From Escherichia coli (GTDB taxonomy: Bacteria > Pseudomonadota > Gammaproteobacteria > Enterobacterales > Enterobacteriaceae): a stretch of DNA of 64,000 nucleotides. Below are positions 19,748-19,784 of this stretch, in pieces. Every line of letters begins with the position of its first letter. Position 1 is the stretch's first letter. The stretch lies in the NCBI RefSeq assembly GCF_044324785.1, contig NZ_CP172127.1; one strand, written 5' to 3'. Under the pieces are notes generated by a model, which saw only the letters and a list, made by a program, of their open reading frames with translations, ran no database searches and was not told the DNA's origin. The translations under genes were made by a program, and so were the position numbers.

Positions 19748-19784
19748 ATGTTCATCCTTGTAAGTCAAAAGAGAACAATAGCGG

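What the first reader, a model, noticed from the sequence alone, without database searches (positions are those of the whole stretch)
19748..19784. Only 37 bp separate the divergent gntX and bioH start codons
The gntX ATG is at 19747 on the minus strand and the bioH ATG at 19785 on the plus strand. Both promoters and ribosome-binding sites must therefore be interleaved or lie inside the neighbouring coding sequence, so the two genes probably share face-to-face or overlapping promoters and 5' UTRs that are antisense to each other's coding start.
Basis: seen in the sequence. Interest (0 to 1): 0.25.

Follow-up and report, generated by a model that had tools for sequence, protein, structure and literature searches.

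The report
Overlapping promoters between gntX and bioH
Two E. coli genes that point away from each other are only 37 bases apart, so each gene's on-switch sits partly inside the other gene; this is a clear, old example of a known arrangement, not a new kind of system.

Summary
The gntX (yhgH/comF) ATG is at 19747 (-), the bioH ATG is at 19785 (+), and the gap is 37 bp. RefSeq annotates K-12 the same way. This was the shortest of 26 divergent gaps in 200 kb of MG1655 (next 119 bp, median about 211). The gap is 34-41 bp in 50 of 56 Enterobacterales species.

Its promoter is built from gntX codons: -35 TAGCCA (gntX Trp9-Leu10) and extended -10 TGtTAGCAT, the reverse complement of gntX Met1-Leu2-Thr3. 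These rare CTA/ACA codons are invariant in 42 species. Two independent primary-5'-end datasets put the bioH start 31-32 nt upstream of its ATG (19753/19754).

gntX keeps a conserved ribosome-binding site at 19755-19759. Any gntX mRNA must therefore overlap the bioH 5' end in antisense, so the promoters are face to face.

The gntX start site is unmapped. I predict:
- a -10 (TAnnnT, 19780-19775) next to the bioH ATG;
- upstream sites inside bioH: a CRP-S-like TGCGA-N6-TTCCT (19882-19903) and a 25-bp block (19828-19852) that is the strongest synonymous-site constraint in bioH.

This is a new member of a known kind, of modest interest.

The parts
19748..19784 (.). 37-bp gap between the divergent start codons of gntX and bioH
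   Evidence: 34-41 bp in 50 of 56 species
19064..19747 (-). gntX (yhgH, comF homologue) coding sequence
19785..20555 (+). bioH coding sequence
19718..19723 (+). bioH promoter -35 TAGCCA, made from gntX codons Trp9-Leu10 (TGG CTA)
   Evidence: Part of the best sigma70-like site on the + strand in a 550-bp scan. gntX codon 10 CTA, the rarest Leu codon, is invariant in 42 species. It is the best -35 match these two residues allow.
19739..19747 (+). bioH extended -10 TGtTAGCAT, the reverse complement of gntX Met1-Leu2-Thr3 (ATG CTA ACA)
   Evidence: TG and TAGCAT are kept while the middle n varies (T/G/A) in Erwiniaceae. The third positions of gntX codons 2 and 3 have zero entropy although residue 3 varies (T/P/S).
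19753..19754 (+). bioH transcription start (experimentally mapped)
   Evidence: dRNA-seq of BW25113: TSS RVS 3542898 on U00096.2, 32 nt upstream of the ATG. Cappable-seq of EDL933: 5' UTR of 31 nt. The 1978-bp offset from U00096.2 to U00096.3, which I recalled from gene coordinates, is consistent with the nfuA UTR of 166 nt seen in both datasets.
19753..19784 (+). bioH 5' UTR (31-32 nt) with a weak SD-like GAGA at 19771-19774
   Evidence: conservation of AAGAGAAC
19755..19759 (-). gntX Shine-Dalgarno AAGGA, complementary to the first bases of the bioH transcript
   Evidence: Sequence. AAGGA, GGAGG or GAAGG is conserved at this spacing in all aligned genera.
19775..19780 (-). Candidate gntX -10 TATTGT (predicted, not mapped)
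   Evidence: In 25 genera the only invariant gap columns are A19775, T19779 and A19780. These are T-7, A-11 and T-12 on the minus strand, and the three middle positions vary. C19782 (G-14) is nearly invariant. TAnnnT is kept 5 nt from the bioH ATG in Yersinia, Dickeya, Brenneria and Rouxiella despite 53-112-bp gaps.
19765..19770 (-). Predicted gntX transcription start (P1), giving a 5' UTR of about 18-23 nt
   Evidence: Inference from the -10 position. No dataset I could read reports it.
19828..19852 (.). Block B: ATCTTGTGCTG(C/T)TGCACGGATGGGG in bioH codons 15-23, invariant at synonymous sites. It can be read as a weak CRP-type site TGTGC-N6-ACGGA centred at 19839.5.
   Evidence: Mean third-position entropy is 0.12 bit against a gene median of 1.33, the lowest window in bioH or gntX. 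Kept in Yersinia, Brenneria and Rouxiella but not in Vibrionaceae. Unique in E. coli genomes. CRP reading.
19882..19903 (-). CRP-S-like site AAATGCGAGCTAAGTTCCTCGT (TGCGA-N6-TTCCT), centre 19892.5, inside bioH codons 33-40
   Evidence: 9 of 10 matches to the E. coli CRP-S motif TGCGA-N6-TTCCA quoted in PMC6728893. Best CRP-like 22-mer in 19748-20121. Same position in 8 genera. TGCG is invariant, including the third base of codon 38 although that residue varies (S/A/P/T).

Best explanation
gntX and bioH are driven by separate promoters that face each other and overlap, and each is built partly from the other gene's sequence.

Shown:
- bioH is transcribed from an extended -10 sigma70-type promoter: TAGCCA, 18 bp, TGtTAGCAT.
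- Its -10 hexamer is the reverse complement of the gntX start codon plus Leu2. Its TG is gntX codon 3. Its -35 is gntX codons 9-10.
- Transcription starts at 19753/19754, inside the gap and 6-7 nt from the gntX ATG.

Forced by these facts:
- gntX has a conserved Shine-Dalgarno at 19755-19759, so its mRNA must start at about 19761 or further upstream.
- The two transcripts are therefore complementary over at least about 8 nt (about 16 nt in my model), including the gntX SD.
- RNA polymerase bound at one promoter covers the core of the other.

Inferred:
- gntX starts at about 19768 from a -10 TATTGT (19780-19775) that abuts the bioH ATG and lacks a usable -35.
- That promoter depends on activator sites inside the bioH reading frame. 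One is a weak CRP-type site at about -71.5 (block B). The other is a CRP-S site at about -124.5, 53 bp or five helical turns further up.
- gntX would then be silent in growing cells and switched on by cAMP-CRP plus Sxy, as reported for the competence (comF) regulon.
- When gntX fires, it should interfere with bioH, and the reverse.
For: bioH promoter:
- It is the best-scoring sigma70-like site on the + strand in 550 bp, with a predicted TSS at 19754.
- The TSS was mapped at -32 in K-12 by TAP-dependent dRNA-seq and at -31 in EDL933 by Cappable-seq.
- gntX codons 2, 3 and 10 (CTA, ACA, CTA) have zero third-position entropy in 42 species.
- TGnTAGCAT is kept with a variable n.

Positive control for the conservation method: the lowest synonymous-variation window in gntX (codons 188-195) coincides with the mapped nfuA distal TSS at 19171.

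gntX side:
- The SD is conserved in all genera.
- T-12, A-11 and T-7 of a minus-strand hexamer are invariant while its middle is variable.
- Block B is the single deep minimum of synonymous variation in bioH.
- Spacing from the -10 to block B and to site II is fixed, with no indels in 25 genera.
- Site II matches the CRP-S motif and is positionally conserved.
- Cameron and Redfield state that comF has its own CRP-S promoter in Enterobacteriaceae, and they searched 300 bp upstream allowing overlap with upstream ORFs.
- No gntX TSS appears in exponential-phase dRNA-seq, which fits an activator-dependent promoter.
Against: - No gntX TSS has been seen, so P1 is a prediction.
- The simple consensus scan found no promoter here at all.
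- P1 has no recognisable -35.
- Block B scores poorly with a canonical CRP matrix: 1.81 bits, with 550 equal or better positions in 64 kb.
- Block B ranks in the top 0.1% of synonymous encodings, but a value that extreme is expected about once among the 1,407 frames tested.
- The CRP-S pattern with one mismatch is not rare: 5 found against 6.2 expected in 64 kb.
- Site II is only half conserved in Klebsiella, Kosakonia and Erwiniaceae.
- -124.5 is far for a CRP activator acting alone.
- RegulonDB lists a different bioH TSS, at -14.
- The invariant bases next to the bioH ATG could serve bioH translation instead.
Confidence: 0.6

Rival explanations
1. gntX is transcribed from a promoter wholly inside bioH (P2). 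Its -10 would be CAAGAT (19833-19828), its start about 19821, with the CRP-S site at the class I position -71.5. The gntX 5' UTR would then be about 74 nt long and antisense to the bioH start codon and its whole 5' UTR.
For: CAAGAT, or CAAGTT in Brenneria and Dickeya, keeps A-11 and T-7 in all Enterobacterales examined. The distance from the site II centre (19892.5) to 19821 is 71.5 bp, and CRP-S promoters are described as class I-like.
Against: It leaves the invariance of the 17-19 bp upstream of the hexamer unexplained, since promoter spacers are not normally conserved. It also leaves the invariant TAnnnT next to the bioH ATG unexplained. The hexamer matches only 3 of 6, with no -35 and no TG. 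No TSS is reported there.
Confidence: 0.2
2. gntX has no dedicated nearby promoter. It is expressed by transcription from far upstream on its strand, either read-through from rpnA, an internal rpnA start, or a sigma-S promoter deep inside bioH, giving a long antisense-bioH leader.
For: rpnA lies on the same strand as gntX, upstream of bioH. A TAP-enriched TSS (FWD 3541839 on U00096.2, window about 20812, minus strand) lies inside rpnA. A genomic SELEX peak for RpoS holoenzyme at 3542562 (window about 20089) lies inside bioH and was assigned to gntX.
Against: A stable hairpin overlaps the rpnA stop (z = -2.5). There is no second dip in synonymous variation around bioH codon 100. The conserved elements cluster within 160 bp of the gntX ATG. 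[quoted passage not shown]
Confidence: 0.1
3. The conserved nucleotides inside bioH and next to its ATG serve bioH itself and have nothing to do with gntX. Candidate roles are an mRNA hairpin, translational pausing at rare codons around the HGWG motif, or a translation-initiation context.
For: RNAalifold finds a 6-bp hairpin UUGUGC-UGCU-GCACGG with G-U pairs that form only on the bioH strand, plus one compensatory change in Entomohabitans. CTT and GGA are rare codons. bioH mRNA is reported to be poorly translated. The TAnnnT stays at a fixed distance from the bioH ATG.
Against: The hairpin is small (-6.4 kcal/mol), has no real covariation and is broken in two species. The loop and both flanks are invariant too. 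No Rfam family matches. The fold of the 5' region is not unusual (z = -1.26). The pattern of invariant -12, -11 and -7 with a variable middle is the signature of a -10 hexamer, not of a translation signal.
Confidence: 0.15

Closest known systems
Face-to-face, partially overlapping divergent promoters, e.g. bioA/bioBFCD of E. coli and tetA/tetR of Tn10 (recalled from memory, not re-read here)
   Same: Two divergent genes whose core promoters overlap. The transcripts start towards each other, so their 5' ends are complementary, and polymerase at one promoter occludes the other.
   Different: In bio and tet both promoters lie in an intergenic region of about 80 bp or more and share one operator for one repressor. 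Here the gap is 37 bp, the promoter elements are made of coding sequence of both genes, no shared regulator is known (bioH is not BirA-controlled), and the second TSS is not mapped.
Bidirectional promoters with overlapping -10 elements (Warman et al., bioRxiv 10.1101/2020.01.31.928960)
   Same: Closely spaced opposite-strand initiation that arises from the symmetry of -10 hexamers. TAGCAT/TATGCT and TATTGT/AACAAT are such symmetric pairs.
   Different: That class is back to back: TSSs 7-25 bp apart, most often 18, with non-overlapping transcripts. With the bioH TSS at 19753 and the gntX ATG at 19747 preceded by an SD, a back-to-back partner would start inside the gntX CDS. So the productive gntX start cannot be of this type.
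[quoted passage not shown] 2009 as quoted in PMC6728893)
   Same: gntX is the comF homologue. A TGCGA-N6-TTCCT site, almost identical in pattern to the sxy promoter's TGCGA/TTCCG site, lies 145 bp upstream of its ATG and is positionally conserved. No gntX transcript was detected in growing cells.
   Different: The site lies inside another gene's reading frame. Its distance to any TSS is unknown. I could not read the published site list (Supplementary Table 3 is not held), so I cannot say whether this site or block B is the published one.
Promoters embedded in the upstream gene's coding sequence, e.g. the sigma32-type nfuA promoter inside gntX in this same window
   Same: Promoter hexamers are encoded by codons of another gene and are visible as a local loss of synonymous variation.
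   Different: For nfuA the host gene is co-directional. For bioH and gntX the host gene is the divergent partner, so each promoter constrains the other gene's first codons.

Membership tests
Extended -10 sigma70 promoter (bioH) | TGn immediately upstream of a -10 hexamer that keeps T-12, A-11 and T-7 | tested here: met
   TGtTAGCAT at 19739-19747. TG and TAGCAT are invariant or nearly so in 42 species.
Extended -10 sigma70 promoter (bioH) | A primary transcript 5' end 5-8 nt downstream of the hexamer | tested here: met
   TSS at 19753 (dRNA-seq) and 19754 (Cappable-seq), 6-7 nt after T19747.
Face-to-face overlapping divergent promoters | The TSS of gene A lies closer to gene B than any possible TSS of gene B, so the transcripts overlap | tested here: met
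   The bioH TSS is 6-7 nt from the gntX ATG. The gntX SD at 19755-19759 is conserved, so the gntX TSS must lie at about 19761 or beyond.
Face-to-face overlapping divergent promoters | Both TSSs mapped experimentally | tested here: not met
   Only bioH is mapped. No gntX TSS appears in the readable datasets.
Face-to-face overlapping divergent promoters | Mutual interference between the two promoters | not testable with these tools
   Needs reporter or mutational experiments.
Bidirectional promoter with shared -10 (back to back, TSSs 7-25 bp apart) | Divergent, non-overlapping transcripts either side of overlapping -10 hexamers | tested here: not met
   The partner of TAGCAT (TATGCT, 19748-19743) would start at about 19736, inside the gntX CDS. 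A productive gntX mRNA must start on the other side of the bioH TSS.
CRP-S promoter (Sxy regulon) | A 22-bp CRP-type site with a TGCGA half-site (C6) and a weaker second half-site | tested here: met
   AAATGCGAGCTAAGTTCCTCGT at 19903-19882.
CRP-S promoter (Sxy regulon) | Site conserved at the same position in orthologous promoters | tested here: inconclusive
   The full site is present at bioH +108.5 in 8 genera. Only TGCG is kept in Klebsiella, Kosakonia and Erwiniaceae.
CRP-S promoter (Sxy regulon) | Class I-like distance from site centre to TSS | tested here: inconclusive
   The TSS is unknown. The distance is -124.5 from the predicted P1 start and -71.5 from the alternative P2 start. Block B lies at -71.5 from P1.
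CRP-S promoter (Sxy regulon) | Induction requires CRP, cAMP and Sxy | not testable with these tools
   The literature says comF has its own CRP-S promoter in Enterobacteriaceae. The paper with the gntX expression data (Sinha 2009) is not held.
Tandem-CRP (class III, acsP2-like) promoter | Two CRP sites on the same DNA face, about 52-53 bp apart, upstream of one core promoter | tested here: inconclusive
   The centres 19839.5 and 19892.5 are 53 bp apart. Site I is a weak match (1.81 bits) and no binding data exist. The acsP2 positions are recalled from memory.

The most novel reading that the evidence does not exclude
The first 40 codons of bioH double as the complete upstream control region of the competence gene gntX. 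They hold a weak CRP-type site (codons 15-22, about -71.5) and a CRP-S site (codons 33-40, about -124.5) that feed a -10 hexamer abutting the bioH ATG. When Sxy and cAMP-CRP switch gntX on, polymerase and the new gntX leader collide with and pair to the bioH promoter and 5' end. A biotin-synthesis gene and a DNA-uptake gene would then be wired as a mutually exclusive pair, an arrangement kept across Enterobacterales and written into the codon choice of both genes.
Probability: 0.3. Interest if true: 0.5.

Novelty: new member of a known kind. Interest (0 to 1): 0.33.

Why it matters
This pair is a compact, well-conserved natural example of regulatory signals written on top of protein-coding sequence in both directions. 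The bioH -10 hexamer is the gntX start codon, and the rarest leucine codon (CTA) is frozen at two gntX positions because it gives the best promoter match those residues allow.

It also shows that a simple profile of synonymous-site variation across related genomes finds embedded promoters. That profile recovered the mapped bioH and nfuA promoters. It also flags a 25-bp element in bioH that nobody seems to have described.

Practical consequences: recoding, codon-optimising or deleting either gene will change the other. The Keio-type deletions of bioH or gntX, and N-terminal tags on either, are likely to have polar effects on the neighbour. If the gntX model is right, it gives a testable case of competence induction interfering with a housekeeping gene.

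Tried and rejected
- The simple consensus promoter scan found nothing between 19400 and 20200. It is too strict for these promoters, so I replaced it with a weighted matrix.
- Rfam search of 19400-20300 on both strands at E <= 5 gave no hits.
- Long-range RNA structure in the bioH 5' region is not conserved and is not unusual for E. coli (z = -1.26). Only a small invariant hairpin appears.
- An upstream or antisense ORF (19752-19913 minus, 53 aa, with an internal ATG giving a 25-aa peptide ending 4 nt before the gntX ATG) was rejected. The ATG is lost wherever bioH codon 15 is GAT, and the gap length varies by non-multiples of 3.
- Block B as a sigma54 promoter was rejected: the GG to GC spacing is one base short.
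- Block B as a sigma32 promoter was rejected: CCCCAT is present on the minus strand but there is no CTTGAA at 13-15 bp.
- Block B as a LexA, FNR, Fur, IscR, Cra or NtrC site gave no convincing match by eye.
- A MerR-type dyad in a 19-bp spacer (TTCAGT, 19 bp, CAAGAT) is possible but speculative.
- The test of CRP-likeness among synonymous encodings gave the top frame of 1,407, but that is not significant after multiple testing.
- TSS tables searched with no usable entry: MG1655 Cappable-seq, ROSE, Kim 2012, Dornenburg 2010 (no files held).
- Thomason 2015 and Sinha 2009 are not held. The Cameron and Redfield site table is not held.
- My strict CRP-S pattern found no site upstream of hofM. The pattern misses known weak sites, so a negative result with it means little.

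Full report
**1. The observation**

- The window is Escherichia DNA. A 1-kb query round the site matches 5,424 of 5,426 complete E. coli genomes, most at 95-99% identity and one at 99.7%.
- On the minus strand ATG CTA ACA GTA CCG begins at 19747 and opens a 227-aa ORF ending at 19064. On the plus strand ATG AAT AAC ATC TGG begins at 19785 and opens a 256-aa ORF ending at 20555.
- RefSeq names these genes gntX (DNA utilization protein, the comF homologue, called yhgH in K-12) and bioH. It gives the same starts and the same 37-bp gap in the closest strain and in MG1655.
- bioH cannot start further upstream because an in-frame TAG lies at 19779-19781.
- gntX is preceded by a conserved Shine-Dalgarno, and the gap varies by non-multiples of three between species, so its ATG is right as well.

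**2. Is 37 bp unusual?**

I listed every divergent pair in 200 kb of annotated MG1655. There are 26 pairs, with gaps of 37, 119, 119, 129, 131, 140 ... 611 bp and a median near 211. The bioH/yhgH pair is the shortest by a factor of three.

A scan of one genome per species found the divergent comF-bioH pair from Escherichia to Erwinia, Yersinia, Dickeya, Vibrio, Photobacterium and Pseudoalteromonas. Of 56 loci with both N-termini aligned from residue 1, 50 have a gap of 34-41 bp. The exceptions are Winslowiella 46, Brenneria 53 and 112, a Citrobacter with an insertion 61, Dickeya 82 and Yersinia 86.

The neighbourhood itself is already in the literature. Cao and Cronan 2017 describe freestanding bioH next to divergently transcribed gntX/comFC, crediting Akatsuka and co-workers.

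**3. The bioH promoter is made of gntX codons**

- *Alignment.* 36 Enterobacterales aligned round the gap show two invariant islands inside gntX: GGCATAGCCA (19715-19724) and CTGTTAGCAT (19738-19747).
- *Promoter reading.* On the bioH strand these read -35 TAGCCA, an 18-bp spacer, then an extended -10 TG-t-TAGCAT. In Erwiniaceae the n of TGn changes (T, G, A) while TG and TAGCAT stay.
- *Codon alignment.* In 42 species gntX codon 2 (CTA), codon 3 (NCA, residue T/P/S) and codon 10 (CTA) have zero third-position entropy. The gene median is 1.43 bits.
- *Codon choice.* CTA is the rarest E. coli leucine codon. It is also the only one that gives T and G at -35 positions 1 and 3, and one of only two that give T-12 in the -10.
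- *Matrix scan.* A weighted sigma70 matrix ranks this site first on the plus strand in 550 bp and predicts a start at 19754. The tool's stricter consensus scan missed it.
- *Experiment.* TAP-dependent dRNA-seq of BW25113 lists a reverse-strand TSS at 3542898 on U00096.2. That is 32 nt upstream of the bioH ATG, window 19753. Cappable-seq of EDL933 gives a bioH 5' UTR of 31 nt, window 19754.
- *Coordinate check.* I recalled the 1978-bp offset between U00096.2 and U00096.3 from known gene coordinates. It is consistent with nfuA, whose 166-nt UTR is the same in both datasets.
- *Discordant entry.* RegulonDB v10.5 lists a 14-nt UTR (window 19771). There is no conserved -10 in front of it, so I treat it as a minor or processed end.
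- *K-12 applies here.* The window and K-12 are identical through the gap.

**4. Face-to-face geometry is forced**

The gntX SD (AAGGA at 19759-19755; GGAGG or GAAGG in other genera) is conserved at normal spacing. gntX is therefore not leaderless, and its mRNA must begin at about 19761 or further upstream. bioH mRNA begins at 19753/19754 and runs the other way.

The two 5' ends are therefore complementary, and the complement of the gntX SD is the very start of the bioH transcript. A back-to-back bidirectional promoter of the Warman type (TSSs 7-25 bp apart with non-overlapping transcripts) is excluded for productive gntX transcription. The symmetric partner of TAGCAT would start at about 19736, inside the gntX CDS.

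**5. Where is the gntX promoter?**

No gntX TSS appears in the exponential-phase dRNA-seq list: there is no forward TSS between 3541839 and 3543480. gntX is also absent from the EHEC/RegulonDB comparison. That fits a silent, activator-dependent gene. Three conserved features lie upstream of gntX.

*(a) A -10-like hexamer in the gap.* In an ungapped alignment of 25 genera, the only invariant gap columns are A19775, T19779 and A19780. C19782 is nearly invariant. On the gntX strand these are T-7, A-11, T-12 and G-14 of a hexamer TATTGT (19780-19775). Its three middle bases vary freely (TTG, CTG, CCG, TCG, ACG). This is the classic -10 signature. The TAnnnT stays 5 nt from the bioH ATG in Yersinia, Dickeya, Brenneria and Rouxiella although their gaps are 53-112 bp. 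That makes sense if its partner elements are fixed inside bioH.

*(b) Block B (19828-19852).*
- The sequence is ATCTTGTGCTG(C/T)TGCACGGATGGGG, in bioH codons 15-23.
- Mean third-position entropy is 0.12 bit against a gene median of 1.33. It is the lowest 8-codon window in either gene and the only deep dip in bioH.
- It is largely kept in Yersinia, Brenneria and Rouxiella but not in Vibrionaceae.
- It is unique in E. coli genomes.

*(c) A CRP-S-like site (19903-19882).*
- The sequence is AAATGCGAGCTAAGTTCCTCGT on the gntX strand.
- It matches the E. coli CRP-S motif TGCGA-N6-TTCCA at 9 of 10 positions. The sxy promoter's own site is TGCGA/TTCCG.
- It is the best CRP-like 22-mer between 19748 and 20121.
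- It recurs at exactly the same bioH position in Escherichia, Citrobacter, Salmonella, Leclercia, Enterobacter, Buttiauxella, Cedecea and Rouxiella.
- TGCG is invariant, including the third base of bioH codon 38, although that residue varies (S/A/P/T).

The conservation method has a positive control in the same window. The lowest synonymous-variation window in gntX (codons 188-195, 19186-19163) coincides with the mapped nfuA distal TSS at 19171.

**6. A model that uses all three features**

- *Start site.* With the -10 at 19780-19775, the start is about 19768 and the 5' UTR is about 21 nt.
- *Site I.* Block B can be written in the CRP frame as TCT-TGTGC-TGCTGC-ACGGA-TGG, centred at 19839.5, which is -71.5.
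- *Match to the CRP consensus.* Every free synonymous site in the two core half-sites (T4, G7, C16, A19) carries the CRP consensus base. Three species with an L18M change have a perfect TGTGA. Position 17 is G, as in CRP-S sites.
- *Site II.* It is centred at 19892.5, which is -124.5. That is 53 bp, or five helical turns, from site I.
- *Precedent.* This resembles tandem-CRP promoters such as acsP2 (-69.5 and -122.5, from memory).

Caveats:
- Site I is a weak canonical match: 1.81 bits, with 550 equal or better positions in 64 kb.
- Its encoding lies in the top 0.12% of 13,824 synonymous alternatives and is the most extreme of 1,407 frames tested. One such value is expected by chance. Only its coincidence with the independently found conservation minimum carries weight.
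- The CRP-S pattern is not rare either: 5 found against 6.2 expected in 64 kb.
- Cameron and Redfield state that comF has its own CRP-S promoter in Enterobacteriaceae and searched -300 to the start codon allowing overlap with upstream ORFs. Their site table is not held, and the paper with the gntX expression data is not held. I cannot say which of my two sites is theirs.

**7. Rivals**

- *P2, a promoter wholly inside bioH.* CAAGAT at 19833-19828 would give a start at about 19821 with site II at -71.5. It is possible, but it leaves the invariant "spacer" and the gap hexamer unexplained.
- *Transcription from far upstream.* rpnA is on the gntX strand, an internal rpnA TSS exists, and RpoS holoenzyme binds inside bioH at about window 20089 in genomic SELEX. 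However, a stable hairpin overlaps the rpnA stop, and nothing else in bioH is constrained.
- *bioH-intrinsic roles for block B.* A hairpin or rare-codon pausing has little support.

**8. Consequences (inferred)**

- Polymerase footprints at the two promoters overlap between about 19748 and 19773, so occupancy should be mutually exclusive.
- The two leaders share about 16 complementary nucleotides that cover the gntX SD.
- Deleting, tagging or recoding either gene's 5' end will disturb the other.

**9. Verdict**

It is wrong in one detail: the bioH UTR is antisense to the gntX SD, not to its coding start. It is unproven for the gntX promoter.

Overlapping face-to-face promoters and promoters embedded in coding sequence are well known, so this is a new, well-documented member of a known kind. 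The one unexplained item is the 25-bp invariant block in bioH.

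Noticed in passing
window 19171-19207 (minus strand), inside gntX codons about 181-195: The distal nfuA promoter is sigma32-type: CTTGAAT (19207-19201), 14 bp, CGCCATAT (19186-19179), with the start at 19171 and a 166-nt leader. The TSS appears in K-12 dRNA-seq, RegulonDB and EHEC Cappable-seq. A ChIP-exo paper says the internal RpoH promoter in yhgH was confirmed. It coincides with the lowest synonymous variation in gntX.
   Followed up: partly
window 19748-19761 and 19822-19834 (+ strand): A near-identical direct repeat: ATGTTCATCCTTGT just after the gntX ATG, and ATGTTCATC-TTGT at the 5' edge of block B in bioH. It is seen in Escherichia only and may be chance. It allows the 5' end of bioH mRNA to pair with GCACGGATG in block B in the minimum-energy fold.
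   Followed up: partly
window 19752-19913 (minus strand): A 53-aa ORF lies antisense to bioH in the same codon register and ends at TGA 4 nt before the gntX ATG. Its internal ATG is not conserved and the gap length shifts the frame in other genera, so it is probably not coding.
   Followed up: yes
window about 20089 (MG1655 U00096.2 3542562): Genomic SELEX with RpoS holoenzyme reports a peak inside bioH that was assigned to gntX (PMC5493296). No matching dip in synonymous variation or obvious promoter was seen there.
   Followed up: partly
window about 20812 (minus strand), inside rpnA: A TAP-enriched internal TSS (FWD 3541839 on U00096.2) lies in the 3' part of rpnA, on the same strand as gntX. 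Its transcript would run antisense into bioH unless it is terminated.
   Followed up: no
window 20556-20590: bioH and rpnA converge with only 28 bp between their stop codons. A stable hairpin (GGCGAG.CAG...CTG.CTCGCC, z = -2.5) overlaps the rpnA stop and could act as a weak two-way terminator. The closest strain, 18KM2445, is annotated with a 219-bp gap here.
   Followed up: partly
window 19771 (+ strand): RegulonDB v10.5 lists a bioH TSS only 14 nt upstream of the ATG. This differs from the -31/-32 start found by two primary-end methods. No conserved -10 precedes it, so it may be a processed end.
   Followed up: partly
MG1655 3522751-3522871 (hofM/mrcA) and 3433560-3433690 (smf/def); L077 and L079: Two other genes of the Sxy/CRP-S competence regulon also sit in short divergent pairs (119 and 129 bp). 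A TGCGA-type site lies 167 bp upstream of smf, inside def. Regulatory sites inside the divergent neighbour may be a recurring feature of this regulon.
   Followed up: partly
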